DNA of 64,000 nucleotides from an uncultured Verrucomicrobiales bacterium. GTDB taxonomy: Bacteria; Verrucomicrobiota; Verrucomicrobiia; Verrucomicrobiales; Akkermansiaceae. The DNA lies in contig CALGJQ010000029.1 of assembly GCA_937928545.1 (NCBI GenBank), positions 1 through 64,000 on the forward strand. Direction: 5' to 3'. The position numbers and the translations under genes are program-made. Position 1 is the first letter of the stretch, and every line of letters starts with the position of its first letter. Positions 44,453 through 63,959 of the stretch are shown here, piece after piece. The notes below the pieces were generated by a model, which searched no databases, had not been told where the DNA came from, and worked only from the letters and a program-made list of their open reading frames with translations.

Positions 44453-45568
44453 TTAGGCCCGTTTGCTTGCGCGGCGAAAGAGGAAAATCCCCAAAGCTAA
44501 ACAGGCGATGTTCGGAAGCCAGAGGAGGGCTTTTGTGATGAGGAGTTCGTCTCCTTGTGTTTTGTCTGCGATGATGAAAAAGACGAAGTATCCAATCGCT
44601 ACGGCGAGACTTAGCACGGCACCAGTTGAAGTTTCTTTTCTTCGCGCCGAGAGACCAAGAGGAATGCCAATGAAGGCGAGTGCGAGAGGAGCCATCGAAA
44701 AGGAAATCCGCCGGGTGCGCTCGACATCGAAGTCATTAATTTTCTCTTGAAGCATCCCTTCCGGGGGATTGGCGAGGAGTTCTCGGATCTCGCCATTATC
44801 GAGCATGTTTGGTTTAATTTTCCGAGCCTTAGAAACCTCCAGAGGAAGAACCCACGGCTCAATTTTTTCACCGAAGGTCTGTTGCAGCTCGCCTTCCTTG
44901 TTATAGGTCTCTGCCCAAACTCCATTTAGGCGGAGGTCCAACTTTTTCACCTTCTTACCTTTATTTCGAAGGGTGACTTGTTCCGCATAGACGTAACCGA
45001 TTGGTTTGGCGCTAGGGTCATCGGTGTTGATTTGATAAGCATGAAATCCTTGCAGGCTTTCGTCTGGGTTCCTCGATTCGATATAAATCCGTTGCCCCTT
45101 CATTCGGGATTGCACGATACCGGGGTCAAGGAGTCGAAGCGGGTCGTCTTCGAGGGTTTCATAAAGGAGTCTTTTGAGTTCACCCTTTGAACGAGGCGAG
45201 ACCGTGGCGTTTAACCAGAGACAGAGAAGCGATAGCGCTAAGCCGAGAGTCAGAACCGGAGCGGCAATCCGATAAAGCCCCATTCCAGCACTGCGAAATG
45301 AGTTGATTTCTTGATCGGATGAGAGCCTCCCAAAAACAAGGAGGACTGCCGCGAGAAATCCCCAAGGAATGGTGAAGACCAGAGAAACGGGAAGAAGCTT
45401 GGCGATGAAAACACCAAGAAACGAAATCGGAGCACCTCGGTCGACCAGAAGCTTGTTAATCTCTTTGAAAAGGTTTCCGAGAACTAGAACAACACTCAGA
45501 ATCAGAACCGCATATAGTGCCGTCGCGAAAACTTGTTTGGCAATGTAGCGGTCGCTCTTGAGAATCAT
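44453..45568 (-). CDS. LptF/LptG-family permease
   Basis: Characteristic N-terminus MILKSDRYIAKQVFATALYAVLILSVV and a periplasmic beta-jellyroll insert. Confidence 0.8.
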   Translation of the reverse strand: MILKSDRYIAKQVFATALYAVLILSVVLVLGNLFKEINKLLVDRGAPISFLGVFIAKLLPVSLVFTIPWGFLAAVLLVFGRLSSDQEINSFRSAGMGLYRIAAPVLTLGLALSLLCLWLNATVSPRSKGELKRLLYETLEDDPLRLLDPGIVQSRMKGQRIYIESRNPDESLQGFHAYQINTDDPSAKPIGYVYAEQVTLRNKGKKVKKLDLRLNGVWAETYNKEGELQQTFGEKIEPWVLPLEVSKARKIKPNMLDNGEIRELLANPPEGMLQEKINDFDVERTRRISFSMAPLALAFIGIPLGLSARRKETSTGAVLSLAVAIGYFVFFIIADKTQGDELLITKALLWLPNIACLALGIFLFRRASKRA

Positions 45569-45637: not shown

Positions 45638-45665
45638 TGGCGGAGAGGGAAGGAATTGAATCTCT
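45638..45665. repeat. tRNA 3'-end-like att repeat, copy 1, marking the left boundary of integrative element 1
   Basis: tggcggagagggaaggaattgaa is repeated at 56452 with one mismatch. Its reverse complement reads TTCAA-TCCTTCCCTCTCCGCCA, which corresponds to T-loop position 54 through the CCA of a tRNA. Confidence 0.55.
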
Positions 45666-45747
45666 CCATTTCTTCTCCTTATAAAACAAAGCATTCAGCC
45701 TTTGGCGGAATTCCTTGGTGTGCCACTTGTGTGACGCTTTTAATAGT

Positions 45748-45761
45748 GCCGATAGGATAAA
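45748..45761 (+). promoter_or_regulatory. Conserved motif TAAAAATCTGACAA, 27 nt upstream of rep-like gene 1
   Basis: An identical 14-mer lies 25 nt upstream of the paralogous gene at 56635. Confidence 0.5.
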
Positions 45762-45787
45762 AATCTGACAAGTCTTTTCAAAGGGCT

Positions 45788-47134: not shown

Positions 47135-47171
47135 CATCTTTCGTTCTACTGTGTTAGGGGTGCTTCTGAAT

Positions 47172-47187
47172 TTGCAACCGGTTGCAA
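47172..47187. repeat. Perfect 16-bp palindrome TTGCAACCGGTTGCAA (site A)
   Basis: Seen directly in the sequence. Extended context is AATTTGCAACCGGTTGCAACAG. Confidence 0.7.
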
Positions 47188-47206
47188 CAGGGTGTGGATG
47201 ATGAGG

Positions 47207-47869
47207 CTAGTTCACGAAATTCTGAGATTCAGCATCTTCAACCTCTTGTTCTTCCTCAATGAAGCCAGCGAAGACTTTCATCATCTCGACTAGCTCTTCC
47301 TGTTTGGCCATATCGCGAAGCACTGAGTCTGGGACTTTAGGCGTTGATTGATTGGCATGATTTTCTGCCATTCGTGGAGTGAAACCTTGGAAGCTATCCA
47401 TCTTGATTCGGATGGTAAGAAGAAGGTTAAGAGCTTCTTTTTTCGCTCGCTCTGAAGTGGCGTCATTGTATTCCTGAAAGGCCAATTTCCAAAGCAGTTC
47501 ATATTCCATTAGAGCTTTCCCTCTCTGCGTCTCAATGTCTGGCCAAGAACAATCCCTTTTCCAACGAACCTCAACCCTTCCTCGATAGCGTTCAAGTTGT
47601 CTCCGGTCTGTGATTTCCAACAAGGGCATAAGTTCGCGTGAATGGGTAACTCCTTGAAGCATGAGTTGCTCTAGTCTCAGAACCTGCTCCTCGTCCCGTA
47701 ATGCCCTATCGCATTCGATGGGAGGGGAAGGGACTTCTACTTCATCTGAGGGGCGAGCGCGCCTCTCTGCAAGGGGAAGGCCTACGCGCCGTCTCTGGCG
47801 GGGAAGGGGAGGTGTGGTAGATTCAGCACTCACGGCGTGCATCCTAACACAGTCCTTTTCCTTCTTCAA
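47207..47869 (-). CDS. Hypothetical protein (220 aa) bracketed by two palindromes
   Basis: ORF with balanced composition and no recognisable motif. Confidence 0.5.
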   Translation of the reverse strand: MKKEKDCVRMHAVSAESTTPPLPRQRRRVGLPLAERRARPSDEVEVPSPPIECDRALRDEEQVLRLEQLMLQGVTHSRELMPLLEITDRRQLERYRGRVEVRWKRDCSWPDIETQRGKALMEYELLWKLAFQEYNDATSERAKKEALNLLLTIRIKMDSFQGFTPRMAENHANQSTPKVPDSVLRDMAKQEELVEMMKVFAGFIEEEQEVEDAESQNFVN

Positions 47870-47902
47870 GAAAGGGACAGCTTAGAGGGCAGTTTTTGTA
47901 GG

Positions 47903-47918
47903 TTGCAACCGGTTGCAA
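47903..47918. repeat. Perfect 16-bp palindrome TTGCAACCGGTTGCAA (site B)
   Basis: Located between the start of the 220-aa gene and the end of the next gene. Confidence 0.7.
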
Positions 47919-47921
47919 TTG

Positions 47922-48818
47922 TCAGTTTCGAAGTTCTTTCACGATTTGATCTCTTACTTCTGGAGAGCTAAATGGCAGTTCTTCTCCTCGATAGATATAG
48001 CGATTTCCTGATGCGTTAGGGGGGACAAAGAGCAGTAGCTTGTCAGCTTCTTCCTTCGTGATTTCCATCTCCCCCGCGACGGCAACTCTGAAAGAATTTC
48101 TCTGCCTAGCAAGATCATCGGGGAAGGCATTCAAAATCCTCTTTCGATTTTGGGCGTAAATTGCGTTTGCTCGAATCACGTCAGGAGACGGAACACTAGA
48201 AGGAATCTTAACGTCCCAAACTTCTGATTTGTCATCCCCTGACCAGCCTTTCCCGTCTGGAATATAGTTCACCATTGCCACAATTTGAGATGCCCCGTGC
48301 TCGATTGAGTGACGACTCATCTCGGCAATCACCGATACTGTTTCAGCCTTCGTTTTTTCCTGAAGATTTCGCGCTGCATAGATGAGAGTCGCGGCATAAT
48401 CTTGCGGCCTCTCAGAGCCTTCGACGACGACACGCCAAGTTAACCGCTTCCTCGATCCAAAGGAGGAATTTTCAGATTCGTAGATCTTGAAAGTGCGAAT
48501 TGCTCCAAGGCGTTCGGCAAGTTCGTCGTTTTTCAGCCTTTCGATTTCCTTGATGAGTTCCCCAAATTCTTCGTCTTCAATCGCTGAATACTTCCTTTTC
48601 AGTTCTTCTAAAGTTGAAAGGTCTTCTTCAGATACAGCCTTTTCGGCTTTCGCTATGATCTCGGAACGATTTTCCTCAAAATCTTTACGCTGTTGAGAAA
48701 TGCCAATGCTTCCGATGATTAGCAGAAGCACAAAGATTCCAACGACCACGGCTAGTGCAACTACGCACCCTTTCTTCTTCGGTTTGGTTTGCGGGAGAGG
48801 GGGTGGAGTCTGTGTCAT
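47922..48818 (-). CDS. Membrane-anchored hypothetical protein (298 aa)
   Basis: N-terminal Pro/Lys-rich segment plus a single TM helix. Confidence 0.5.
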   Translation of the reverse strand: MTQTPPPLPQTKPKKKGCVVALAVVVGIFVLLLIIGSIGISQQRKDFEENRSEIIAKAEKAVSEEDLSTLEELKRKYSAIEDEEFGELIKEIERLKNDELAERLGAIRTFKIYESENSSFGSRKRLTWRVVVEGSERPQDYAATLIYAARNLQEKTKAETVSVIAEMSRHSIEHGASQIVAMVNYIPDGKGWSGDDKSEVWDVKIPSSVPSPDVIRANAIYAQNRKRILNAFPDDLARQRNSFRVAVAGEMEITKEEADKLLLFVPPNASGNRYIYRGEELPFSSPEVRDQIVKELRN

Positions 48819-48945
48819 TGCTTAGGTGGTTTACTGCTCCCCGCGCTATGCCGAGGTCCGTGCATATATGCACGTATCAGGCACCGCATTGGAAGGGTAA
48901 AAACGAAGCCTGAGCATTGACCCTAAAGACCTAGCTTCGGCAGTT

Positions 48946-49152
48946 GTGGAAATCCTTAGAGAGAAGCGAGTTGAGCAGGGCCTATCCCATGAAGCTCTCT
49001 CCAAGCTCTCGGGAGTTCATCGCACAACTGTGAGCCGAGTTGAGAGAAACCAGATAAACGCCACTCTGTTTGTTCTTCAGAGTATGGCGGGCGCGTTGAA
49101 CCATCCTCTAAGTGAGATTTTGGCTCAGGCTGAAGATCGCTTGAAAAGGTGA
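48946..49152 (+). CDS. XRE-family helix-turn-helix transcriptional regulator
   Basis: QGLSHEALSKLSGVHRTTVSRVERNQ is a Cro/C1-type HTH. Confidence 0.7.
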   Translation: MEILREKRVEQGLSHEALSKLSGVHRTTVSRVERNQINATLFVLQSMAGALNHPLSEILAQAEDRLKR

Positions 49153-49299
49153 TTTTCTCAGCTTTTTAAAGTAGCACTGAGGCCTTGGATTCGCTGGGAT
49201 GTGCATGAAATGAATCCTTCAGAACTTCTGATGTGGATCAATGTGGGTTTAGTGCCTAACCTCTCTTAACGGAGCTGAAATCATTTCAGCTTTTCGACG

Positions 49300-50622
49300 A
49301 TGAGCGCACAGCCTTTATCGTTGGATAGTGCTCACCGGAAAATAAACTCAATGGATGATCTGTTTGACTCGGAACCAAAGCTTCCCAATCCGAAGCGGAA
49401 GGGGAGCGTGTCAATTGGTGTTGGAGGGTGGTCTCGCTTTCATGCGGCGTTCTCGAGAGCGTTCGTAGAAGCGGCAATTGCTGATTTGTCTCAGAATTAC
49501 AAGAGCCCTCTAATATTTGATCCGTTTGTTGGTTCTGGGACGTCTATCGAAGCTGCTCGGAGCATGGGGCTTCCTATAGTTGCAAACGATTTGGACCCCG
49601 TCTCTGCGCTAATGTCTCGAGCAAAGGCTTCTAGTGATTATTCGCTTAGAACTATATTAGCCCTTCTTAAAAAGGGCCGTTCTAAGAAAATAAACGTCAA
49701 TTTTTCCGAAGCAGACCAATATTTCAGCCCTGAAAGTTGGGCCTACTGTTCAGACGTGGTAACGCGCTTGAGAAAGAAGGTAGGCAAATGTAGTAACTTG
49801 GTTTCTACTCTCGTCGAATCGACCCCGGGGAAATATGACAATGAGGTGCTAGCCCTAGCATCTATTTTGATGAGCGCATCAGTTGCTTGGAAGGGACGAG
49901 GTAGTTCCAATCCAACGTGGCATAAGAAAACCTCTGCGAATCCTACTGTGGAGTCGCTAGCCGATCTTACGACCGATGCCGCAACGAAAATAGTCTCTGA
50001 TTTATCTCAGGATTTCCCCGAAAAGTGTGTGCGAGGGACCAGAGTTTATATGAGGAATATTGCTGAGCCAATAGCATTGAAGACGAGGCCTCCAAATGTT
50101 GTTGTAACGTCTCCACCTTACCTAACTAGGATTGATTACATTAAGAATCATTTGCCGGAGGTTGTGATTCTAAATGCCTTTCAAGATTTTGAAATCCGAT
50201 CTCTAAGAGATCAAATGATTGGAACCCCGACAATTCCGAAGGGTGAGCGCTCAACGGGAAGTGGCTCAAAAAAGGCCGAGAAGATAATGAAGGAGATTGA
50301 GGGGCATGAGAGCTTCGGATCTGCCAACTACTACCTTCCTTTTTACAGAAATTACTTCGTCACTATGGAAAAGTTTTTACGAAGTTTAAAAGGGATGATT
50401 GCCGCAGATGCAAGCGGCTACATCGTTGTTCAGGAATCCCGCTACAAGGAGTTGATCGTAGATCTTCCTGCAATTGTTGTCGAACAACTGGAGTCTATAG
50501 GGGCTACGGCTTCTGTGCGTTCCGAATTTCCTGTGGGTTCATCTTATTCAAACCTAAACTCTAAATACCGGAATTCGAATAGTAGGAAATTGGTAGAGTC
50601 GGTGGTTAGCTTCAAATTTTAG
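49300..50622 (+). CDS. DNA methyltransferase (amino-MTase, alpha-class motif order)
   Basis: Motif I LIFDPFVGSGTS lies about 200 aa before motif IV VVTSPPY. Confidence 0.8.
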   Translation: MSAQPLSLDSAHRKINSMDDLFDSEPKLPNPKRKGSVSIGVGGWSRFHAAFSRAFVEAAIADLSQNYKSPLIFDPFVGSGTSIEAARSMGLPIVANDLDPVSALMSRAKASSDYSLRTILALLKKGRSKKINVNFSEADQYFSPESWAYCSDVVTRLRKKVGKCSNLVSTLVESTPGKYDNEVLALASILMSASVAWKGRGSSNPTWHKKTSANPTVESLADLTTDAATKIVSDLSQDFPEKCVRGTRVYMRNIAEPIALKTRPPNVVVTSPPYLTRIDYIKNHLPEVVILNAFQDFEIRSLRDQMIGTPTIPKGERSTGSGSKKAEKIMKEIEGHESFGSANYYLPFYRNYFVTMEKFLRSLKGMIAADASGYIVVQESRYKELIVDLPAIVVEQLESIGATASVRSEFPVGSSYSNLNSKYRNSNSRKLVESVVSFKF

Positions 50623-51614
50623 TAGTGCGTTGAATCAAAAATTGGTTCCCAGACTTCTTCCCAGTCATCGAGCCAATTGACGGCACAAAAGTCGTTGAAG
50701 CAACATTTCTCCTGTTTGAGCGGTTCAAGATTAGCCGCCTTATCTACGTCAAGTTTTGATCTGCATAGCGGAGAAGATCGTATGCACTGGCTTCTAGCGA
50801 GCATCCATTCGACGTAATTCACATGAGCGATACTGAGGTTAGAGAATTGAGCTACGCATCCAAGAGCTTGGGCTGTAGCTCTGCGAGCTTCCTCCACAAA
50901 GACTCTGCTGGGCTGATTTTTGTGGGACGTAAGCCTTTCAAGTGCCAGTTTGTGTTTAGGGAAGATCCTACCTGATCTCAGGTAAATTCTGATGATATGG
51001 TAATCTATCGCAGGCTTGATGTTCTCTGGATCAGTTATAGCGATATTACCATTCCTTACGAGTTCGTGAACAAGAACACACGATTTTTTTCTCAGTGGAT
51101 CAGCCTCAAATGCAGGGAACTCGTCGAGGTAGCTATATAAGCCTTTTGGGCCACTAAGACGTTTTTTTGACTTAGAAAGCAAGGATTGAAGGCTGCATTT
51201 AAATTTTGACTCCAAAATTTTAGCCGTTTCTTTGAGGATGCCAATTCTCTCGTTTGATCTTATTCTAGTCTCATCGATGCCCTCACCAAAAGGCTGCTCG
51301 AATTGTTCTGGCGTGATGTCTCTGACTAGGTTCGTTATTTGTGTTGCTGATTTACACCCCGCAAATAATTTGCTCATAGCGGATTCGAGTTCGTTCCAGT
51401 TATACTGGTGACATATCGAAATGAAGAAGAATTTCTCGGTTAAATCCCTGCCAGACCACGGAGAACCAAGCGATGGATTAGAGTCCTTTAGAAGAGTGAG
51501 CTTTTGGGCCGAAAGCTGGCAAGCAATCTCACTAACGCCGAACCAAGGGTCTGATTTAGGGTCTGGAAGAAGCCTCTCAGTTCTTGATGTGCCCGAGGCA
51601 TTTGGATTTTTCAT
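50619..51614 (-). CDS. DUF2419 / Qng1-like nucleotide N-glycosylase family protein
   Basis: ERIGILKETAKILESKFKCS and flanking blocks resemble the queuosine-5'-phosphate N-glycosylase (Qng1/C9orf64, DUF2419) family core ER-RIL-ETGKIL-EKFGGS. This is recognition by eye. Confidence 0.55.
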   Translation of the reverse strand: MKNPNASGTSRTERLLPDPKSDPWFGVSEIACQLSAQKLTLLKDSNPSLGSPWSGRDLTEKFFFISICHQYNWNELESAMSKLFAGCKSATQITNLVRDITPEQFEQPFGEGIDETRIRSNERIGILKETAKILESKFKCSLQSLLSKSKKRLSGPKGLYSYLDEFPAFEADPLRKKSCVLVHELVRNGNIAITDPENIKPAIDYHIIRIYLRSGRIFPKHKLALERLTSHKNQPSRVFVEEARRATAQALGCVAQFSNLSIAHVNYVEWMLARSQCIRSSPLCRSKLDVDKAANLEPLKQEKCCFNDFCAVNWLDDWEEVWEPIFDSTHY

Positions 51615-52155
51615 GGAGATACTTTTCCTGCTCAGGTGTCCGATTCATATCGAGGTGAGCTTGCTTGACGTTGAAGCCTTCCCTTTGTAGGGCTTCTATT
51701 TTGAGCGGGTTGTTGGATTCAATTCGAATGTCTTTTGGCGTATTCATACTTGCCAAAAGTTTTGCAGCAAAATCAAAATCTCTCTCATCTTTTGAGAAAC
51801 CTAATTCCTTAAAAGCGTCCGAAGTGTTGAGACCTTGCGCCTGTTGGAGGCCGATAGCCTCACATTTTTTAAGTAGTCCGATTCCTCGACCTTCCTCGAA
51901 AGAATAGATTAAAAGACCCGGGCTAGTTTTAAGTTCGTCGAGAAAAGATTCTAGCTGATGGCCACAATCGCAATCATCAGCACCGATAGCCTCGCTGAAC
52001 AAACAAGAGGAATGTATTCTAACCAAAACAGGGCCATCTCCAAAATTATCGTCCTTATAAACGATGGCATGACTTTCATCTGACAGGGGGACTCTTATCC
52101 AGTAGTCAAAGCCTTTGCGGGTGATTCGAATGGGCTCTGTAAGCTCTATACTCAT
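51577..52155 (-). CDS. GTP cyclohydrolase II (RibA-family) homolog
   Basis: VRIHSSCLFSEAIGADDCDCGHQLE (zinc Cys triad), EGRGIGLLKK, ERDFDF and SNNPLK align along the whole length with E. coli RibA motifs. Confidence 0.85.
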   Translation of the reverse strand: MSIELTEPIRITRKGFDYWIRVPLSDESHAIVYKDDNFGDGPVLVRIHSSCLFSEAIGADDCDCGHQLESFLDELKTSPGLLIYSFEEGRGIGLLKKCEAIGLQQAQGLNTSDAFKELGFSKDERDFDFAAKLLASMNTPKDIRIESNNPLKIEALQREGFNVKQAHLDMNRTPEQEKYLHEKSKCLGHIKN

Positions 52156-54512
52156 TAAAATTCTTTAGCTGGGAGATCACTTGGAGACTCTATGAGTCGA
52201 GTGATATAATTCTCAGGCCAGTCAATCTCATTGTCTGTATAGAATCGAGGGATTTTTGGTTTTTCGTTCATCGTCTCTATATATTTAACTGATGATACTG
52301 AAAATTCGTAATGCGCCCGTTCAAATGGTCGCTCGGTTCCCCATCGCGAGACAAGTAAGCTGATTTTATCGAGTGTCTCACGAGCTTCCGTTACATCGTT
52401 AGATCGAAGGCTAGCATCAGCCAATCCAAGACAGCTCCAGAAGAGGGAGTCTCTGTTAGTCAATTTTTCAGCGCACTCAATTGCCTTACCGTAAGATTGT
52501 CGAGCCTCGGTGTTTTTACCGAGATGACGAAAAACTTCTCCTTCGGCTAAATGGGAGTTACCAAGCTCTAGTCTAAGGTGATTTATCTTAGCTAATTTTT
52601 TTGCTTGGGTGGCAGAGCGTAGAGCCTCGTTTCTGCGCTCTGGAATAAAGCAGTATGTTCGAGCTTCTGTTCGATAGATGTCGCAATTTTCCTTGGGGCC
52701 AAATGCTTCAGGATCATTGTCACGAAGGGTGTGAATTTTTTCTATCCACAGAGATGCTTGAGAATAATGTCCTTTGGCTCTTTCAATAGTATTGAGGCAG
52801 CGGATAGCCCCCAGCCCCTCCTTCGTGGTTCTATGATTATCTTTAAGGATAGCCTCAGCAAATTTGGTGGCTCTTTCAAACTGACCTAACCGAACGAGGA
52901 TTTTTGTCTTTAGCAGGAGAATCTTATTTGAAATTGGGAGCTGCTCTACGATCTGGATCGCCTCCGAGTAATTGCCTCTAATGTAAAATGCATAAGCACG
53001 AATGGATTCGATTGAGGTGTGATAATTCTCTGTGGATCCAATAGCCTTTGTTAACCCAGTCTCGATTGATTTGAGCGACTCTAAACCGGCGTCAATTCGC
53101 CCGCCTCGCACTAATATATCTGCTGAAGCGATGAGCCTTTCCCAGTCCAACTGCTGATCTTGAATTGTCCACGCCGATAACGAATTTTCGAAGAATGAGA
53201 GTAAGCTTTCGTCGAATTTCCCCCTGATTTCAGGTTGATCGAGTATTTTTAAGATTTCAGCGGCTATTTCCACCTTTGCATGAAGAGTAGTAGCGCCAAA
53301 AATACTCTTTCCAATTAGGTCATGGTAAAGCCTTACTCCTCCAGAATTAGGATCAATTTTAACGATTAACTTTTCTTGAGCTTCAGCAAGTGCGCTGCTC
53401 AGCTCTACAGAGCTGTCGATTCTGGCCAATTTTAAGATGAATTCGTGCGGAAACCATCCGCCTGAAGGTAGCATGGCCAAGCCCCTAATTACTCTGATGG
53501 CAGCATCAGAGTCTAGGTTTTCAAAGTGGCTGGGATAGTCAGATGGCATGGATCCTAAGCACTGATGCGCTGTTGGGATTTGGTCAATACTTGGGGCGTT
53601 GTTAAGAAGCTGTTCAATTAGGAAAGGCCTTCCTTGCGTTTCATCCTGAAGGTCTTGGAGTTTCTCGTAAAGAGGAACCTTTCCAAAGATTTTGTGAAGC
53701 CATTCTTCGATTGCAGGAGCTTCCAAGGAGGGGACTAGGTGTTCCTCATAAGAGCCTTTAGAGTTTTGCTTTAGCTCTTTTACAAAGTAGCTAAACACCT
53801 CTCGGTCTTGAGTCTCGTCGTTCATCGACACAAATATCGACCAGCCATTAGGAAGCTGTGAAAGAACACCCAGAATTACCTGCTTCATGTCTTCCGAGCT
53901 TTTTTCAGCTGAGTCAATGCAGATCACCCCACTAAGACCGAGTCGTTCACAAAACTTAAGAAGTTCCTCAAACCGCACCAGCTTATCTTCGTGAGCCATG
54001 TTGACAATACTTGAAGCTTGAGTTGCTTGGTTAGTGTCCTTGTGGGTGGAATAGAGAACATTGAACAGAGCTTCTGCTGTTTTGGGAGTCAGAAGCCCTA
54101 GGTCCTCAATGAAACCATGGATGAGAGTTTCTGTATGGTCACTCGAATTGTCGTTAAGTGACTTTCTCATGGCCTCTAATTTGTCTTTCCGGATTTGGAG
54201 GTGTGGGCCAATAGCAGCACACACTGCGGCCATTAGTCTAATAGAGTGAACGGCTTTAGAGGAGACCTCAAATAGGCAGCTTATTTTCTCTTCGGGAGAA
54301 GATGCCATGACTTCCTCAAGGATAGCGGTTTTACCAACTCCTGAGCCCCCTGAGAGAATATAGATTTTTTTCTCTAGTGGATTTTCACAAAGATTCTCAA
54401 TCATTGAGCGTCTTCCGAAGAGAACGCGAGCTGGGATCGATTTTTCAGGGCTTGAAAGGATTTCGCCTTCGTTACTCTTACTTTTGAAAAATCTAGAAAC
54501 CCAATTGAGCAT
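52155..54512 (-). CDS. STAND-type P-loop NTPase with C-terminal TPR repeats
   Basis: Walker A LSGGSGVGKTAILEE about 50 aa from the N-terminus, a Walker-B-like GVICIDSAE, and about 300 aa of TPR-like repeats (AIQIVEQL..., KAIECAEKL...). There is no DNA-binding or fused effector domain. Confidence 0.75.
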   Translation of the reverse strand: MLNWVSRFFKSKSNEGEILSSPEKSIPARVLFGRRSMIENLCENPLEKKIYILSGGSGVGKTAILEEVMASSPEEKISCLFEVSSKAVHSIRLMAAVCAAIGPHLQIRKDKLEAMRKSLNDNSSDHTETLIHGFIEDLGLLTPKTAEALFNVLYSTHKDTNQATQASSIVNMAHEDKLVRFEELLKFCERLGLSGVICIDSAEKSSEDMKQVILGVLSQLPNGWSIFVSMNDETQDREVFSYFVKELKQNSKGSYEEHLVPSLEAPAIEEWLHKIFGKVPLYEKLQDLQDETQGRPFLIEQLLNNAPSIDQIPTAHQCLGSMPSDYPSHFENLDSDAAIRVIRGLAMLPSGGWFPHEFILKLARIDSSVELSSALAEAQEKLIVKIDPNSGGVRLYHDLIGKSIFGATTLHAKVEIAAEILKILDQPEIRGKFDESLLSFFENSLSAWTIQDQQLDWERLIASADILVRGGRIDAGLESLKSIETGLTKAIGSTENYHTSIESIRAYAFYIRGNYSEAIQIVEQLPISNKILLLKTKILVRLGQFERATKFAEAILKDNHRTTKEGLGAIRCLNTIERAKGHYSQASLWIEKIHTLRDNDPEAFGPKENCDIYRTEARTYCFIPERRNEALRSATQAKKLAKINHLRLELGNSHLAEGEVFRHLGKNTEARQSYGKAIECAEKLTNRDSLFWSCLGLADASLRSNDVTEARETLDKISLLVSRWGTERPFERAHYEFSVSSVKYIETMNEKPKIPRFYTDNEIDWPENYITRLIESPSDLPAKEF

Positions 54513-54591
54513 AATCTTGTAATGATTGACCCCTTTTAAAGGGTTGGGATTTGTAGCATCATTGTAATACGAGTTCTAGGTTTCATGTCGA

Positions 54592-56388
54592 TTAAATCGA
54601 CTTCGGAATGAGCGTTTTCTGTTCAGCGAGAAGAGTTATGGCTTGAATAGAGTCGCCGACGTGATCGATTTCTTCTTTAAGTCTAGCGAGACTATAGCCA
54701 TTTCCATAGCTACTGTGTGAACTCTTCTTGCTGCTAGATTCCACCCAGCCACCTAAGGCTTCCATTATGGGAACTGGAACTCCTGCGTCTCGGCCAGCTC
54801 TGGCAAATGAGTGTCGGAATGAATGAAGAGTCTTCTCCCTATTTTCTAGAGTTTGCCCCTCAAGGACCTGCCTTCGGAAGCGAGAGAACCATTTGCTCAC
54901 AGCGTCGGCCATAGAGCCCCGTTTTGTTTTTGTAAGAGTAGAGAAGACATAAACGTGATCAGCTTTTCTTTGGCCATCTATGAAAGCTAGAAATCCTGTT
55001 TTTAGAAACTGATCACTTAGAGGCAACCGTCGATTGCTGTGACTAGTCTTGAGTTGCTTCACCTTCAGGCCTTTATCGTTCACCTCACGGATATCAAGGA
55101 ACCAGACTCCTTCCTCTTGTTTGACGTCCTCAACGAGGAGTTGCGCGGCTTCGTTGGCCCTCATGCCGTGGAAAAAGCAAAGAAGAGGAATCCAAAATCG
55201 AGGGTAATTTTTTGGGTGATGGCGGCAGTCTAGGAATGACTGGAGAGAAAAGAGCTTTACCAGTTCATCTGACGGGAAAACTACGGACTCCTTGTTCGTG
55301 ACTTCAGGAAGGCGACTTGAGACAGCCCTTTTTGTAAATGGATTTGCGGTAATCCAGTCCAGTTCGTGAGCGTGGCGGAAGATTGATGAAAAACCTTGCA
55401 GGTGGTCTTGTTGGGTCTTCGGAGAAATGAAGCAAGGAAGGTTCCTTGCATCTTCTCTTATCGATGCTTCTTTTAGAGTAAGCTTGGGATAACGCTTTGT
55501 CCCGTTGTTTGGAATTTTACCAAGAAAGTCTGCCAGCTTCTGAGCCTCTTCAACTCCTACAGCTGAAACTGCGGTTGTGTCTCCAAGGAAGTCCTTGAGA
55601 ATACGGATTTGCATCTGGTATTTAGAGAGGGTGCCTGTGGTTACACCCATCACCTTCTTGTCTTGCTGGTATTTGGCGCATAGCTCGCCGATGGTGCGCG
55701 TTTTAGCAGGGCGCGCGTTTACTGATGAATGGGAATAGAGATCTCTAAAGAGCGGATTTTCGGGCTCTTTTGGTGCCGAATTCATCGCGATAAGAGTCCG
55801 GCGTCCGATCTCAATTTCAGCTTTGCGGATTTGGTGTGCAAAAATGATGATTTCCTCATCGGTTGCTTGAAAGCCGTCCTCTGCAATGATCGCAGCAGCT
55901 TTCTTCTCCCATACTGAAAGAGGGATAGAATCAAAGGAGCTGATGTCTGAGTGGTCGAGCCTAGCATCCCCTAAAGCCTCATTTTTCCAGAGATCATCAT
56001 CGGATGCTGTCCAATCGTCTCTGAAGCTTTCGGCTCCCTTTTCTCTACTTACGAACCATCGAAATACTAAATCGCGTTTTTGTTCCTCCGTGAGAACCTT
56101 GAAAGGGAGCTTCTCTGCGTTGTTACTCTCCTTAGTGCCTTTCCACTGCTGTTCTAGCTTCTCGACCTCTAATTGGAAGTGAAGGGCTTCTCTCGTTGCT
56201 ACTTGTTTAGCTTTTTTCCAGTCTTTGGTCTCAAGGCTCTTTCTGAAATGGCTTTTCCCTCCGGTTAGCTCAAGGGGAAGGTCACGCGGATAGCGGGCGT
56301 TGAAGTAGTAAACGCCATTTCGGCGGATCGTGTTTGGAATCTTAGGCACGTTGTCTGAGGCTTCTGGTGTGTCACCTTGGTATGCCAT
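54592..56388 (-). CDS. Tyrosine recombinase / phage-type integrase (element 1)
   Basis: C-terminal catalytic motifs FHGMRANEAAQL, HSFRHSFA and a GW...Y tail, with a long N-terminal extension. Confidence 0.85.
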   Translation of the reverse strand: MAYQGDTPEASDNVPKIPNTIRRNGVYYFNARYPRDLPLELTGGKSHFRKSLETKDWKKAKQVATREALHFQLEVEKLEQQWKGTKESNNAEKLPFKVLTEEQKRDLVFRWFVSREKGAESFRDDWTASDDDLWKNEALGDARLDHSDISSFDSIPLSVWEKKAAAIIAEDGFQATDEEIIIFAHQIRKAEIEIGRRTLIAMNSAPKEPENPLFRDLYSHSSVNARPAKTRTIGELCAKYQQDKKVMGVTTGTLSKYQMQIRILKDFLGDTTAVSAVGVEEAQKLADFLGKIPNNGTKRYPKLTLKEASIREDARNLPCFISPKTQQDHLQGFSSIFRHAHELDWITANPFTKRAVSSRLPEVTNKESVVFPSDELVKLFSLQSFLDCRHHPKNYPRFWIPLLCFFHGMRANEAAQLLVEDVKQEEGVWFLDIREVNDKGLKVKQLKTSHSNRRLPLSDQFLKTGFLAFIDGQRKADHVYVFSTLTKTKRGSMADAVSKWFSRFRRQVLEGQTLENREKTLHSFRHSFARAGRDAGVPVPIMEALGGWVESSSKKSSHSSYGNGYSLARLKEEIDHVGDSIQAITLLAEQKTLIPKSI

Positions 56389-56451
56389 TTGCAGACTTTA
56401 ACGCTTTGATTTACAATGTTTCCTCTAACTTTAAGTGAGTTAGAGGGAAGG

Positions 56452-56478
56452 TGGCGGAGAGGGAAGGACTTGAACTCT
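56452..56478. repeat. tRNA 3'-end-like att repeat, copy 2, at the junction between element 1 and element 2
   Basis: tggcggagagggaaggacttgaa. Its reverse complement, TTCAAGTCCTTCCCTCTCCGCCA, equals tRNA positions 54-76 (probably a Ser-type tRNA with a GGAGAGG acceptor stem and G73). Confidence 0.55.
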
Positions 56479-58426: not shown

Positions 58427-59269
58427 CTAAGGCAAGGCGACGGTTGGAGGTGCGATCAATACCTCTTTGCCCTTTTTGCTCGAATGCGCGCTATAATGGA
58501 GGGAAAAGGATCGGCAGGTCATGTCCCGATATAGTGCTCTAATTTCGGGTGCGTCATCATAAGTAAGAACCCATGGGAAGTCTGCCTTGTCTCGGAGATA
58601 GTCAGACACCTTTGCATGATCCTCTGGCTTGTAGTGATTGAGGTAGAGCTGTGATCCTTTCACGAAGTAAGGTGGATCGAGATAGGCGAAAAAATCCTCG
58701 TTGGCGTATTCCTTCGACGATGCAGCAAGGAAATCGAGAGCATCCAAATTCGAAATCTTGATGGATTCTTTGTGGTCAGCAATCTCCTCAATTCTTGCGA
58801 TCAAAGAATCCTTGTTAAACCTCGCGTCAATTTTCCAATTCCCATTTTGGGCGATTCCACCAATCGGACCACCAGTCGCGATAATGCCAGATCGATTGCA
58901 CCTGTTTAGATAAAAACTAGCAAATCCAGTCTTAAACTGAGAATGCTTATTAGAGCTTTTGTAAATCGCCTTTTGATTTCGCCATTCATCTACTGTTATT
59001 GGAGTTCGGTGAATTGCGTTTTTGAGGCGTGTTGTTTGATTGAGAACTGCGTTCCAAAACGAGTAAATCCGATAGTCGGCATCGTTTATGAGAGCGGTTG
59101 AGACATGCCCTAGGAAAAGGAGTTGTAGGGCTGAAGACGCCCCTCCTGCATATGGTTCTGCGTAAATGCCTCCTTGGAGTCCGTTTGCATAAACGATTTG
59201 TTGGAGCAAGGGACAAAGCTTTCCTTTCCCACCTGGGTAACGGAGAGGGCTGACTTGGCTAGCGATCAT
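58427..59269 (-). CDS. Dam-family DNA adenine methyltransferase
   Basis: LRYPGGKGK at the N-terminus (Dam motif) and DPPY catalytic motif. Confidence 0.85.
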   Translation of the reverse strand: MIASQVSPLRYPGGKGKLCPLLQQIVYANGLQGGIYAEPYAGGASSALQLLFLGHVSTALINDADYRIYSFWNAVLNQTTRLKNAIHRTPITVDEWRNQKAIYKSSNKHSQFKTGFASFYLNRCNRSGIIATGGPIGGIAQNGNWKIDARFNKDSLIARIEEIADHKESIKISNLDALDFLAASSKEYANEDFFAYLDPPYFVKGSQLYLNHYKPEDHAKVSDYLRDKADFPWVLTYDDAPEIRALYRDMTCRSFSLHYSAHSSKKGKEVLIAPPTVALP

Positions 59270-60753
59270 TTTTTGACAGACAGAAGCTTTTCAAAAACTG
59301 GCTCAAGTTTGGCACAGAGTGATTCAATATCGGAATCGGTTACTGGGAAAAATTCAGCATGAACCCACGCGTTTAATGTTGTAAGAGAAAAAATTCCTTC
59401 TTTCTGTCCCAGCAACTGATTTACGACAGAAATAACTCTCTTTTCGAGCTGGATTGATGACCCTGCGTTGGAGTCGATTATGAACTTGAGCATACGTGAT
59501 AGCTTCGGAATCTCATTGGGATTTGCCTGATTGACAAATTTCATAAGTTTTGGCCAGTCACCAGCTTCCTTTACTGACCCAATTAGAGACAATTCCAACA
59601 GGAGCCTTACAAGGAGAGCCGTTGAGTTTTTATATTCACTATATCGAATGGAGTGAATTTCCTTGATCACCGAAGGGATTCTTTGATCAGGAAAGCAGCA
59701 TGTGAATTTTTTCTTAAAAAGCCCATTTCCGTATTTCCTACCCGCCTTCTTTTTCGGTGGGAGTTGCTTTTGGGGAGGGGTGGTAACTTTGGGAGGGGGT
59801 GGACTATTTGAAAGTTTCGCATAAAGAGCTTTGAACTCTTTCGGAGTCTGTCTTTTCTTCTTAGGTAATTGATCTTCCAACTTTCCGAGATAGCCCTTTA
59901 GCTTTCCGAGATCACCGACAGTTCTTGTGTCGAGCTTCTTCTTTCCCGTTTGCTCATCAATCGATAGGGAATCTTCAAGAATTATGCTGAGGAAATGTTG
60001 AAACCGCTCCATTCCTCCTGTCACCTCAATTCCTTTGTCGGGGCTGATTGAGAACCCTACCGTCTTTTGGGCTGTCGGAACGGTGATTATCTTATCGATG
60101 ACGGTTGCATGGGGGAATTTTTTTGGATCTGCGAGATCCTCTTTTATCTCCTTGGCCAAATCAAGGTGAGGAGAGATTTCGTAAATGCTTAGGGTTGCCA
60201 ACGACTCGGAAATCGCCCCGTCCGTTGCCCGACAGATTCGTTTGATCTCCTCAAGGCTCTCTCCAGCGTTGACCAGCTTTTGGATGAAAACCGCCTGTTG
60301 AATTTTGGACCACCGCTTGGAAAACGTTTCCGGCGTGTGCTTCATGTAAACATATATGTTTGCCTGAGTCCTGTCTGGTGCGCAAACAGTCCAAACCTTT
60401 CGGGGGAGGTTTTCGCCTAAGTCAGTTTGGAGTGCTTTGAAGGTTTTCTGAACGCTGGGGTCAGGCGCGCGAAGAGGATTGGTAAGCAGCTTATATGCAG
60501 CAAGCCGCCGATTCCCCTCGATCACGATCTTCTTGCCATTCTCAACCGCGATCACCAAGTCTTCGACTGGCAGGTAGCCAACTTGAGAAATCTGTCTTGC
60601 GAGTTGATCAATGTCCTCAGTTTCGAGGAGCTTTTCAATCGCTTCAGCCTCAGACTTTGTTTCGCCGAAAAGCCTCGGGTTTTTAAGGTCGAGGTGAAGT
60701 GATGAAATGACGTATTCACGTTTCTTCCATTCAGTATAGTTGGTCAGTGGCAT
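59266..60753 (-). CDS. ParB-like nuclease-domain protein with a C-terminal domain of unknown function
   Basis: KIVIEGNRRLAAYKLL is a ParB/Srx-type GxRR motif near the N-terminus. The gene overlaps the dam-like gene by 4 nt. Confidence 0.6.
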   Translation of the reverse strand: MPLTNYTEWKKREYVISSLHLDLKNPRLFGETKSEAEAIEKLLETEDIDQLARQISQVGYLPVEDLVIAVENGKKIVIEGNRRLAAYKLLTNPLRAPDPSVQKTFKALQTDLGENLPRKVWTVCAPDRTQANIYVYMKHTPETFSKRWSKIQQAVFIQKLVNAGESLEEIKRICRATDGAISESLATLSIYEISPHLDLAKEIKEDLADPKKFPHATVIDKIITVPTAQKTVGFSISPDKGIEVTGGMERFQHFLSIILEDSLSIDEQTGKKKLDTRTVGDLGKLKGYLGKLEDQLPKKKRQTPKEFKALYAKLSNSPPPPKVTTPPQKQLPPKKKAGRKYGNGLFKKKFTCCFPDQRIPSVIKEIHSIRYSEYKNSTALLVRLLLELSLIGSVKEAGDWPKLMKFVNQANPNEIPKLSRMLKFIIDSNAGSSIQLEKRVISVVNQLLGQKEGIFSLTTLNAWVHAEFFPVTDSDIESLCAKLEPVFEKLLSVKK

Positions 60754-60896
60754 CTGTGTCGGTTGTAGCTTGGCAAAGTGTGCTCAAAAAATGGTTCGTA
60801 ATAAAGCCTTCTTCTGGGCGGAGTAAATTCGACTCAAAAGGAAACTTTAGGTGTATTCAGAAAAACACTTGATTTTTTGAATACACTTGGTAGATA

Positions 60897-62800: not shown

Positions 62801-62816
62801 TTGCAACTGGTTGCAA
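62801..62816. repeat. Palindrome TTGCAACTGGTTGCAA (site C, one mismatch to sites A and B)
   Basis: Abuts the stop codon of integrase 2. Confidence 0.65.
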
Positions 62817-63959
62817 TTATTGCCACGGGTTGTCCTCAAGTCCTTCAATGGTGACCTGATCGACGATAGCTTTAAGCTGACTAAGCGGGAATCCTTTGCC
62901 GTAATCTGCTCCAGCGTTTTTCTTTCCCCCGCCAGTAGTCCACCCAAGAAGGGCAGTTCGCTTGTCATCGGAATCGGTGATTCTCCTTAGTTCATCGGTG
63001 ACTTGGTGTCTGAAGGTATGAAAAGTCTTCCTTTTTTTGTTTGGCTGGTTGGTTGTGACCTTTCGGATTTGGCGGTTAATCCACTGGCTTAAATCCTTTG
63101 CTCGGTTTCCTGTGAGTGAGTTCTCTTTGAACTCGCAGAAGAGAAAAGGATCTTCCCCTTGTTCCCTTCGCCTTTCCACAAAATTGAGGAATCCGCTTTC
63201 GATGATTTGTCGATGAATCGGGACTCGTCTCTGGCTGACTTCGCTTTTCAGTGATTTGATTGTCTGGCCAGTATCGTCTTCTTCTCTGACTGAAAGATAG
63301 TGAACACCCTCAGAGACTTTTACGTCTTCGATGAGAAGAGATGCCGCTTCATTGATACGCAAGCCATGAAAGACGCAAAGCAAAGGAACCCAAAACTTGC
63401 CCTCTGTTGCCAAGCCCTCTTCGTTGCTTGTTCCTCTAACTGACAAGAGGGAAGAGCTTGTGAAAAGTGCCCTGAGTTCAGTTGCTGTGAACGAAACATG
63501 CTCTTTCCTCTTCACTGCTGGCAAAAGGCCTCGCAGTGCTTTTGAGTCGAAAGGGTTTCTATCGATCCACTGAATTTCTTCAGCGTAGGAGAGAATGGAT
63601 TGAATCGTTATGAAAAGATCAAGCTGGCGTTTTGGGGCTAACCCTTTCCCCGTCTTTGCGACATTGGCGAGTTTCGCCGCCGCCCTGAAGTCCATACCGG
63701 GAAAGCGTTGGGTTTTGTTGGCTGGAATCTCTGCGAGAAATGAAACCAGCTTTTCGGCTTCATCATATCCGATAGACTTTAGCGGTTTATCGGGACCAAA
63801 GAAATCAATCAAGATTTCGATGGGCATCTGATACCCCGCAAGGGTCGATTTCTTGAGCTTGCCCTTGGCAAAACGAGTTGGGAATCGCTCGCAAATTTCT
63901 GCGATGATTCGGTGCGAGTGAGGGGTAGCTTGCCCTTGGCTAGCGATTATTGAGGCCAT
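62817..63959 (-). CDS. Tyrosine recombinase / integrase (element 2)
   Basis: FHGLRINEAASL, HTFRH and a GW..Y tail. Paralogous to the integrase at 54592..56388. Confidence 0.85.
   Translation of the reverse strand: MASIIASQGQATPHSHRIIAEICERFPTRFAKGKLKKSTLAGYQMPIEILIDFFGPDKPLKSIGYDEAEKLVSFLAEIPANKTQRFPGMDFRAAAKLANVAKTGKGLAPKRQLDLFITIQSILSYAEEIQWIDRNPFDSKALRGLLPAVKRKEHVSFTATELRALFTSSSLLSVRGTSNEEGLATEGKFWVPLLCVFHGLRINEAASLLIEDVKVSEGVHYLSVREEDDTGQTIKSLKSEVSQRRVPIHRQIIESGFLNFVERRREQGEDPFLFCEFKENSLTGNRAKDLSQWINRQIRKVTTNQPNKKRKTFHTFRHQVTDELRRITDSDDKRTALLGWTTGGGKKNAGADYGKGFPLSQLKAIVDQVTIEGLEDNPWQ

What the first reader, a model, noticed from the sequence alone, without database searches (positions are those of the whole stretch)
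58427..60753. Overlapping Dam-like methyltransferase and ParB-like nuclease-domain protein as cargo of element 2
The 495-aa protein has an N-terminal ParB/sulfiredoxin-type GNRR motif, a proline/lysine-rich linker and a C-terminal domain of unknown function. Its stop overlaps the start of a Dam-family methyltransferase by 4 nt. A ParB-like nuclease paired with its own adenine methyltransferase could be a non-canonical restriction-modification-like or phage-exclusion module. It may be analogous to, but distinct from, GmrSD/DUF262 or DndB-type ParB nucleases. The serine recombinase and XRE regulator next to it could regulate it.
Basis: partly seen in the sequence, partly recalled or inferred. 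Interest (0 to 1): 0.6.

Follow-up and report, generated by a model that had tools for sequence, protein, structure and literature searches.

The report
Divergent PD-λ-5 phage-defence gene pair
The two overlapping genes are a distant but intact copy of PD-λ-5, a two-gene bacterial anti-phage system (a ParB/HEPN protein plus an adenine methyltransferase) already validated in E. coli, so the find is real but not new, although nobody has yet shown how this system works.

The parts
59266..60753 (-). PD-λ-5_A homologue, 495 aa: ParB/Srx-like NTP-binding domain + HTH/helical middle + disordered linker + HEPN-fold domain
60319..60753 (-). A residues 1-145: ParB/Srx (ParB-CTPase fold) domain with Box I-like LxLD22xxN25PR27, Box II/P-motif E79-G-N-R-R83, R128, H139 and W148
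59809..60306 (-). A residues 150-315: helical middle region including a probable HTH DNA-binding domain, as in ParB/KorB/Noc
59683..59808 (-). A residues 316-357: proline/lysine-rich flexible linker
   Evidence: pLDDT <50 for residues 322-342. Sequence NSPPPPKVTTPPQKQLPPKKKAGRK. Length and composition vary across the family.
59269..59682 (-). A residues 358-495: all-helical HEPN-fold domain with non-canonical conserved residues E365, N376, R383, E387, N461 and H465
58427..59269 (-). PD-λ-5_B homologue, 280 aa: D12-class N6-adenine DNA methyltransferase
   Evidence: PADLOC PD-Lambda-5_B PDLC04018 2.9e-111, residues 4-278. Pfam MethyltransfD12 9.4e-19. Motifs EPYAGGAS and DPPY. Closest solved structure 7m6b, 2.5e-18.
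59266..59269 (-). ATGA stop/start overlap coupling A to B
   Evidence: Read directly from the sequence. The same -4 spacing is seen in 26 of 74 related loci, and spacing is tight in the rest.
60754..60896 (.). 143-bp divergent intergenic region between A and the serine recombinase gene; presumed promoter region of the A-B operon
   Evidence: Position only. The consensus promoter scan found nothing above shuffle expectation.
56452..56474 (.). 23-nt repeat resembling a tRNA 3' end (att-like); left boundary of the integrative element that carries the pair. The second copy is at 45638-45660.
   Evidence: Two copies with <=1 mismatch, 0 expected by chance. Alignment of the two flanks.
62817..63959 (-). 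Tyrosine integrase of the element carrying the pair (int2). The right-hand att site or tRNA is expected just beyond the window end.
   Evidence: Pfam Phage_integrase 2.2e-9. 36 % identical (E 2e-73) to the integrase of the neighbouring element at 54592..56388.

Best explanation
The locus is an intact, divergent PD-λ-5-type two-gene anti-phage module, carried as cargo on a small tyrosine-integrase element. Shown: family membership of both proteins, the domain architecture, the conserved operon and co-inheritance. Inferred mechanism: B, a D12-class N6-adenine methyltransferase of unknown and probably non-GATC specificity, marks the host's own DNA. A is the sensor and effector. Its first ~300 residues are built like the NTP-gated DNA clamps ParB, KorB and Noc (nucleotide-binding domain with intact Box I and GxRR P-motif, then an HTH). 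A flexible basic linker connects this to a HEPN-fold domain, which sits where ParB has its C-terminal dimerisation domain. I propose that A dimerises through the HEPN domains, engages DNA through the HTH in an NTP-dependent way, and is held inactive on B-methylated DNA. Unmethylated incoming phage DNA would license the effector activity: RNA cleavage by the HEPN domain (Abi-like arm), DNA nicking by the ParB/Srx domain (restriction-like arm), or both. This matches the discoverers' label 'compacted RM+Abi'. Confidence that this is a PD-λ-5-type defence module is about 0.9. Confidence in the clamp/methylation-sensing/HEPN-effector mechanism is about 0.35.
Against: No biochemistry exists for any member. 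In the papers searched, no mechanism study of PD-λ-5 was found. The HEPN domain lacks the canonical linear Rx4-6H motif: the expected Arg position is hydrophobic (L460, hydrophobic in 140/141), and the invariant Arg (R383) lies on another helix. RNase activity is therefore not assured, and the domain could serve only for dimerisation or ligand binding. The HEPN assignment rests on fold comparison plus weak DUF4145 hits, because sequence profiles find no HEPN in the PDB. The window copy is only <=32 % identical to any relative and was not compared directly with the E. coli proteins, only through PADLOC profiles. Whether the E. coli system acts by Abi or by direct immunity could not be read from the text held. 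The strong activity against T-even phages (glucosyl-hmC DNA) reported for E. coli is not what a simple unmethylated-site restriction model predicts.
Confidence: 0.85

Rival explanations
1. A plain type II-like restriction-modification pair. The ParB/Srx domain of A is the DNA endonuclease that cuts unmethylated sites, and the HEPN-fold domain serves only for dimerisation or scaffolding and has no RNase activity.
For: The canonical HEPN Rx4-6H motif is absent. ParB/Srx-fold proteins with DNA-nicking activity are documented (Osa and RK2 ParB, cited in PMC12839542). An intact A never occurs without B. H139 and GNRR are invariant in the N-domain.
Against: The C-domain carries residues as strictly conserved as those of the N-domain (E365, R383, E/D387, H465), which is unusual for a purely structural domain. 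Vassallo excluded clones with RM-typical high-frequency escape plaques from the screen, yet PD-λ-5 was retained as a novel system and called RM+Abi. Protection was strongest against T-even phages, whose DNA resists most type II enzymes.
Confidence: 0.25
2. A is a DndB-like regulator, not an effector. It is a ParB-fold, NTP-sensing, HTH-containing repressor that tunes expression or activity of the methyltransferase, and the pair is an epigenetic module rather than a defence system.
For: DndB also combines a ParB-like domain with a HEPN domain and acts as a negative regulator (PMC3632139; PMC12839542). KorB, the best Foldseek match by TM-score, is a transcriptional repressor. A has an HTH-like middle region.
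Against: The E. coli homologue pair confers broad phage resistance. Loss of B goes with truncation of A, and an intact A was never seen alone, the signature of a toxic partner rather than a dispensable regulator. Conserved catalytic-type residues in the HEPN domain. No DGQHR motif and no dnd genes nearby.
Confidence: 0.06
3. A is a partition or segregation ParB for the mobile element, and the methyltransferase is an unrelated neighbour.
For: The N-terminal half resembles the ParB, Noc and KorB NTD+HTH cores. The locus sits on a mobile element.
Against: The window has no ParA-type deviant Walker A protein. The element is integrative, with a tyrosine integrase. The C-terminus is a HEPN fold, not a ParB dimerisation domain. 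The methyltransferase is directly downstream in 76/80 loci and co-diverges with A at r 0.93. Pfam ParB_N does not reach threshold.
Confidence: 0.01
4. A phage-type ParB-methyltransferase module serving the mobile element's own DNA, for packaging-linked or anti-restriction methylation as in phage ParB-terminase loci, rather than host defence.
For: ParB-fold and methyltransferase associations are common in phages and prophages (PMC4738411; PMC12704722). A full A+B pair occurs in Marinobacter phage AS1.
Against: There is no terminase or packaging gene nearby. In phage AS1 the pair sits next to the integrase, a moron position. Most of the 80 loci are chromosomal contexts without phage genes. The E. 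coli homologue defends the host.
Confidence: 0.03

Closest known systems
PD-λ-5 (PD-Lambda-5) of E. coli ECOR7 (Vassallo et al. 2022, PMC9519451; PADLOC and DefenseFinder family)
   Same: The two genes are in the same order and tightly coupled. A has the ParB/HEPN architecture and B is a D12-class adenine methyltransferase. Total size is 2.3 kb against 2.46 kb. Both are carried on a mobile element. Both proteins match the family's profile HMMs.
   Different: The sequence is very divergent (nearest relative found is 32 % identical for A). The host is not an enterobacterium (no DNA match in 5,426 E. coli genomes), and the closest relatives are in Verrucomicrobia, Planctomycetes, Myxococcota and some Proteobacteria. 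It sits on a tRNA-type integrative island rather than a prophage. Function has not been tested for this copy.
ParB / KorB / Noc CTP-dependent DNA clamps
   Same: The N-terminal nucleotide-binding domain has Box I and the GxRR P-motif and is followed by an HTH DNA-binding domain, a flexible linker and a C-terminal domain.
   Different: There is no ParA partner. The C-terminal dimerisation domain is replaced by a HEPN fold. Box III is replaced by a [RK]-H139-T ... W148 signature. The obligate partner is a methyltransferase. Nucleotide specificity is unknown, and it is not predictable from sequence according to PMC12704722.
DndB and GmrSD/DUF262 (COG1479) proteins, including SspE and BrxU
   Same: A ParB/Srx-fold N-terminal NTP-binding domain is fused to a C-terminal nuclease-type domain (HEPN in DndB, HNH/DUF1524 in GmrSD). 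They are linked to DNA-modification-based self/non-self discrimination (PMC3632139; PMC10952713).
   Different: The motif is GNRR rather than DGQ(Q/H)R. Only 3 of 84 family members touch Pfam GmrSD_N, and weakly. There is no HNH/DUF1524 domain. GmrSD enzymes are type IV (they attack modified DNA and have no methylase), whereas here a cognate methylase is obligatory.
Lactococcal AbiR with the LlaKR2I methylase
   Same: A defence system containing a ParB-like protein that depends on a DNA methylase for host viability and is toxic without it (PMC13064643).
   Different: AbiR has three genes (a sigma-like protein, a ParB-like protein and a nuclease/helicase) and borrows the methylase of a separate RM system. 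It has no HEPN fusion.
PrrC/EcoprrI and HEPN domains fused to R-M subunits (DUF4145 and others; Anantharaman et al. 2013)
   Same: The logic of an RNase-type HEPN 'second line' physically coupled to a restriction-modification apparatus. A ParB-HEPN fusion (Saro_3948) and a HEPN family in an operon with ParB and a methylase (MAE_28990) are listed there.
   Different: Here the whole system is compacted into two genes, and the HEPN lacks a linear Rx4-6H motif. I could not test whether Saro_3948 belongs to this same family, because it was not retrievable.

Membership tests
PD-λ-5 defence system | Protein A matches the PD-Lambda-5_A profile HMMs | tested here: met
   24 of the 25 listed PADLOC families are PD-Lambda-5_A models, best E 2.5e-43. 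Full-length alignments include PDLC04007 (residues 12-490) and PDLC03995 (8-494).
PD-λ-5 defence system | Protein B matches the PD-Lambda-5_B profile HMM (D12-class methyltransferase) | tested here: met
   PDLC04018 E 2.9e-111, residues 4-278 of 280. Pfam MethyltransfD12 9.4e-19.
PD-λ-5 defence system | A and B are adjacent on the same strand, A upstream, forming one operon | tested here: met
   4-nt ATGA overlap. The same arrangement is found in 76/80 related loci.
PD-λ-5 defence system | A has the ParB/HEPN architecture given by the discoverers | tested here: met
PD-λ-5 defence system | Confers resistance to phage infection | not testable with these tools
   Shown only for the E. coli ECOR7 system. 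Not tested for this copy.
PD-λ-5 defence system | The methyltransferase is active on host DNA and is needed to tolerate A | not testable with these tools
   Indirect evidence only. The E. coli system needed a Δmrr host. An intact A was never found without B, and the two assessable B-less loci have a truncated A.
Partition ParB (ParABS) | Cognate ParA (deviant Walker A ATPase) encoded nearby | tested here: not met
   No KGGxxGK[ST] motif in any frame of the 64-kb window. No ParA family among the neighbours scanned.
Partition ParB (ParABS) | ParB-type C-terminal dimerisation domain, and a Pfam ParB_N match above threshold | tested here: not met
   The C-terminus is a HEPN fold. Pfam gives no hit for the window protein, and only 3/84 family members hit ParB_N weakly.
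Dam (GATC) methyltransferase orthologues | Score above the NCBIfam TIGR00571 'dam' cutoff | tested here: not met
   50.9 bits against a cutoff of 114.85. Among solved structures only 7m6b matches (2.5e-18) at E<=0.01, and no chain annotated as Dam or DpnM is listed.
Catalytic HEPN RNases | HEPN four-helix fold | tested here: met
Catalytic HEPN RNases | Conserved Rx4-6H active-site motif | tested here: not met
   The motif is L460-[N/H/D]461-x3-H465. The Arg position is L/M/F/I/V in 140/141 sequences. The invariant R383 is on a different helix.
GmrSD / DUF262 type IV restriction enzymes | DGQQR-type DUF262 domain plus a C-terminal HNH (DUF1524) domain, with no cognate methylase | tested here: not met
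   The motif is GNRR. GmrSD_N is hit weakly in 3/84 members and DUF1524 is never hit. A cognate methylase is present in 76/80 loci.
DndB (Dnd phosphorothioation regulator) | DGQHR motif and linkage to dndCDE genes | tested here: not met
   No such motif. No dnd genes among the window neighbours or among conserved neighbours of related loci.

The most novel reading that the evidence does not exclude
PD-λ-5_A may be a new kind of immune sensor: a ParB/KorB-like, NTP-gated DNA clamp whose C-terminal dimerisation domain has been replaced by a HEPN domain with a non-canonical active site (Arg supplied from helix 2 instead of Rx4-6H). It would load on or slide along DNA, read the adenine-methylation mark written by its partner, and switch on a nuclease only on unmarked DNA. 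That would make restriction-modification logic run through a CTP-switch-type clamp and an RNase rather than a classical endonuclease.
Probability: 0.3. Interest if true: 0.65.

Novelty: new member of a known kind. Interest (0 to 1): 0.3.

Why it matters
For this window, the result is an annotation: a defence-island cargo that PADLOC or DefenseFinder would label PD-λ-5. What matters more widely is the family. It is large (at least 2,400 clusters at 50 % identity) and spread across many bacterial phyla plus at least one archaeon. It is validated as a broad-spectrum defence in E. coli, yet it has no Pfam model for protein A, no solved structure and no published mechanism in the literature searched. 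The analysis here provides a testable residue list (R82/R83, H139, W148, E365, R383, E387, H465), evidence that A is not tolerated without B, and a specific architectural analogy to the ParB, KorB and Noc clamps. If the clamp model holds, it would link the CTP-switch field to anti-phage immunity. This divergent copy would then be useful mainly as a distant sequence for defining the invariant core.

Tried and rejected
- **E. coli genomes:** megablast of the 2.3-kb region against 5,426 complete genomes found no match, so the locus is not an enterobacterial copy.
- **Exact-protein look-ups:** The look-up of encoding contigs for A returned 'not on record', and cluster look-ups gave no names. The source organism and the DNA right of the window could not be obtained.
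- **Pfam and NCBIfam on A:** no hits. Scanning 84 family members gave only sporadic weak ParB_N, GmrSD_N, HTH and DUF4145 hits.
- **C-domain sequence searches:** a sequence profile of the C-domain alone against the PDB gave only spurious coiled-coil or designed-protein hits. Pfam at E<=1 gave only 3/31 weak DUF4145 hits. The HEPN call therefore rests on fold comparison.
- **Promoter/terminator scan of 57.9-61.9 kb:** counts were no higher than in shuffles.
- **Search for a conserved third gene:** clustering of flanking ORFs in 76 loci found only clade-specific neighbours, none shared with the window. This rejects the idea that the serine recombinase or XRE gene regulates the pair.
- **Saro_3948:** a plasmid-collection protein search meant to recover the ParB-HEPN prototype of Anantharaman 2013 did not find it.
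- **Literature dead ends:** the Nature 2026 'PD-λ' paper concerns PD-λ-1/SNIPE and is irrelevant. The PNAS 2025 ParB-fold survey never mentions HEPN fusions.
- **My own error, corrected:** I first took ORF 44453..45568 for a third integrase. Pfam shows it is LptF/LptG.
- **Wφ gp98 (P2-like phages):** it shares only the ParB-like head and its best match is PDC-M38A, so it is not a PD-λ-5.
Full report
**Observation.** The minus strand carries a 495-aa ORF (59266..60753) and a 280-aa ORF (58427..59269). The end of the first reads ...GTC AAA AAA TGA, and the ATG of the second overlaps that stop as ATGA, a 4-nt overlap. The larger protein has GNRR at residues 80-83 and a proline/lysine-rich stretch at about 316-345. 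The smaller one has the D12-class motifs EPYAGGAS and DPPY and hits Pfam MethyltransfD12 at 9.4e-19.

**Identity.** Pfam and NCBIfam find nothing for the 495-aa protein. The PADLOC defence library does: 24 of its 25 listed hits are PD-Lambda-5_A models (best 2.5e-43, several spanning residues ~10-490). The 280-aa protein hits PD-Lambda-5_B at 2.9e-111 over its full length. PD-λ-5 is one of the 21 systems found by functional selection in E. coli (Vassallo et al. 2022, PMC9519451). It comes from ECOR7, consists of two genes in 2,461 bp, and is annotated by the authors as "ParB/HEPN, methyltransferase". It affected plating or plaque size of all but one of ten phages and was strongest against T-even phages. 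[quoted passage not shown] I found no later paper that works out its mechanism. The 2026 Nature paper that mentions PD-λ concerns PD-λ-1/SNIPE.

**Architecture of A.** An AlphaFold2 model built from a 31-sequence alignment is confident (mean pLDDT 85.3). It shows a mixed α/β N-domain, a helical middle, a disordered linker (322-342) and an all-helical C-domain (358-491).
- Foldseek against all PDB chains puts the two-domain (nucleotide-binding NTD + HTH) cores of ParB·CTPγS, KorB (TM 0.63 per target), Noc, ParB·CDP and Spo0J on top. It finds no full-length solved homologue.
- A family profile also hits ParB 4umk at the GxRR box (E 0.0012).

The N-terminal ~300 residues are built like the CTP-switch DNA clamps, with the HEPN domain occupying the place of ParB's C-terminal dimerisation domain.

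**Conserved residues.** In 141 diverse homologues, G80, R82, R83, H139, W148 and H465 are invariant. N81 and R383 are present in 140, N25 and R27 in 139, E365 in 138, E/D387 in 138, and D22 in 134. All are intact in the window copy. The N-domain motifs correspond to ParB Box I (LxLDxxNPR) and Box II, the P-motif (EGNRR). In a 2025 survey of the fold, the P-motif arginine was required for NTP binding, and different members bound CTP, ATP or GTP with no specificity predictable from sequence (PMC12704722). The HEPN domain does not have the canonical linear Rx4-6H motif. The motif is L-[N/H/D]-x3-H-N, with a hydrophobic residue where the Arg would be, and the invariant Arg (R383, in RxxL[E/D]) lies on an earlier helix. 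I could not measure whether R383 approaches H465 in 3D. Sequence-only searches with the C-domain were uninformative, apart from weak hits to DUF4145, the HEPN family associated with R-M systems.

**The methyltransferase.** B is D12-class but scores 50.9 bits against the NCBIfam Dam cutoff of 114.85. Its only significant solved relative is 7m6b (2.5e-18), with no chain annotated as Dam or DpnM among the hits at E ≤ 0.01. The E. coli system worked against phages grown on Dam+ K-12 and needed Δmrr. From what is known of Mrr, which attacks some m6A-modified DNA but tolerates Dam methylation (my own knowledge), this implies a non-GATC adenine motif there. The specificity of this copy is unknown.

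**Recurrence of the pair.** A degenerate-pattern scan of one genome per GTDB species found at least 516 confirmed loci, and the 80 best come from many bacterial phyla plus a Thermoplasmata archaeon. A profile search of 1.84 billion cluster representatives found 7,817 relatives at E ≤ 1e-3 and 2,421 at E ≤ 1e-30.
- In 76 of the 80 loci, a B homologue (37-54 % identical) lies directly downstream on the same strand.
- With longest-ORF calling, 26 of 74 loci have the same -4 overlap. All but one of the rest fall between -76 and +49 nt, and the outlier (-211) is most likely an over-extended start.
- Two of the four exceptions are contig ends. In the other two, A is truncated: after ~226 aa in L048, and by a stop inside the HEPN domain in L069. 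An intact A was never seen without B.
- Pairwise distances of A and B correlate at r = 0.93, with 0 of 2,000 permutations as high. Yet the window's nearest relatives belong to Phycisphaerae, a gammaproteobacterium, Verrucomicrobia, Myxococcaceae and Deltaproteobacteria, so the pair moves horizontally as a unit.
- Clustering of flanking ORFs found no conserved third gene, and none of the window's neighbours recurs.
- A full pair also sits next to the integrase of Marinobacter phage AS1. P2-like phages carry only a related ParB-like head with other partners.

**Context in the window.** A 23-nt repeat that looks like a tRNA 3' end read on the minus strand occurs at 45638 and 56452, with none expected by chance. 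The left copy abuts a core LptF/LptG gene. Between and after the repeats lie two related elements:
- **Element 1 (45661-56451):** a 448-aa ORF ... tyrosine integrase.
- **Element 2 (56475 to beyond 64000):** a 449-aa ORF, B, A, a serine recombinase, an XRE gene, a 317-aa ORF and a tyrosine integrase.

The integrases are 36 % identical (2e-73) and the 448/449-aa ORFs 33 % identical (9e-58). GC is 0.46-0.48, against 0.515 in the first 41 kb. "Cargo of element 2" is therefore right. The target tRNA itself should lie just outside the window. No ParA-type Walker A exists anywhere in the window.

**Mechanism.**
- *Shown:* membership of both proteins in the PD-λ-5 families, the ParB-like NTD+HTH / linker / HEPN architecture, the obligate operon, co-inheritance, and loss of A integrity when B is lost.
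- *Inferred from established knowledge:* B methylates host DNA; the GxRR pocket binds an NTP; HEPN domains usually dimerise and often cleave RNA; and ParB/Srx proteins can nick DNA (Osa and RK2 ParB, cited in PMC12839542).
- *My proposal (~0.35):* A is a ParB-like, NTP-gated DNA-binding dimer held together by its HEPN domains. It is silent on B-methylated DNA and licensed on unmethylated incoming DNA to cleave RNA, to nick DNA, or both.

Two precedents share this logic. One is lactococcal AbiR, which contains a ParB-like protein, needs an RM methylase and is toxic without it (PMC13064643). The other is the PrrC-type model for HEPN domains attached to R-M subunits (PMC3710099). The main rival (~0.25) is a plain RM pair in which the ParB domain cuts DNA and the HEPN domain is only structural. 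A DndB-like regulator, a partition ParB and a phage self-methylation module are all unlikely, for the reasons listed under the rivals.

**Comparison and novelty.** The locus passes every testable membership criterion for PD-λ-5 (profiles for both proteins, gene order and coupling, architecture). It fails the criteria for partition ParB, Dam orthologues, GmrSD/DUF262 and DndB. It has the HEPN fold but not the canonical HEPN catalytic motif. It is a new, very divergent member (≤ 32 % identity to its nearest relative) of a known and validated kind. Standard defence-annotation tools would label it. The open question is the family's mechanism, not this locus.

**Verdict.** The most novel reading still open is a ParB-clamp-plus-HEPN immune sensor that reads adenine methylation, with probability about 0.3 and interest about 0.65 if true.

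Noticed in passing
window 45638-45660 and 56452-56474, spanning 45661 to beyond 64000: A 23-nt direct repeat resembling a tRNA 3' end delimits two tandem, related integrative elements. Each runs from a paralogous 448/449-aa ORF of unknown function (no Pfam hit) to a tyrosine integrase. The left repeat abuts a core LptF/LptG gene. The intact target tRNA should lie ~65 nt beyond the start of the right-hand integrase, just outside the window.
   Followed up: partly
window 51577-54512 (-): A 785-aa STAND-type NTPase (AAA_16 + TPR; weak Avs4 hit at 1.6e-4) is start/stop-coupled at 52155 to a stand-alone 192-aa GTP cyclohydrolase II (RibA-like, NCBIfam 1.6e-43), followed by a 331-aa ORF with no hits. 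A GTP-consuming enzyme coupled to an Avs-like sensor on a mobile element could be an uncharacterised defence operon.
   Followed up: no
window 49300-51614: Also on the left-hand element, a 440-aa N6_N4-type DNA methyltransferase (PADLOC MTase_II 1.1e-13) converges on, and overlaps by 4 nt, the unannotated 331-aa ORF. This could be a second RM-like pair, which would make the region a small defence island.
   Followed up: no
window 47172-47187, 47903-47918, 62801-62816: The 16-nt perfect palindrome TTGCAACCGGTTGCAA occurs twice, plus once with one mismatch. Each copy sits in a short gap at gene 3' ends, and the copies are spread over both elements. It may be a shared terminator or a protein-binding site.
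   Followed up: no
L081 (Escherichia phage Wphi 31384-32589, gp98) and other P2-like phages: P2-like phages carry, at a genome end, a 401-aa protein whose N-terminal ParB-like head is related to PD-λ-5_A. Its best PADLOC match is the candidate family PDC-M38A, and it is paired with gp96 and a cytosine methylase instead of a D12 methylase. It is a sister architecture using the same sensor head.
   Followed up: partly
L064-L080 (actinobacterial loci): In an actinobacterial clade the A+B pair sits directly downstream of a ~1,180-aa relaxase-like protein and a small excisionase-like HTH gene. This suggests carriage on integrative conjugative elements in that lineage.
   Followed up: no
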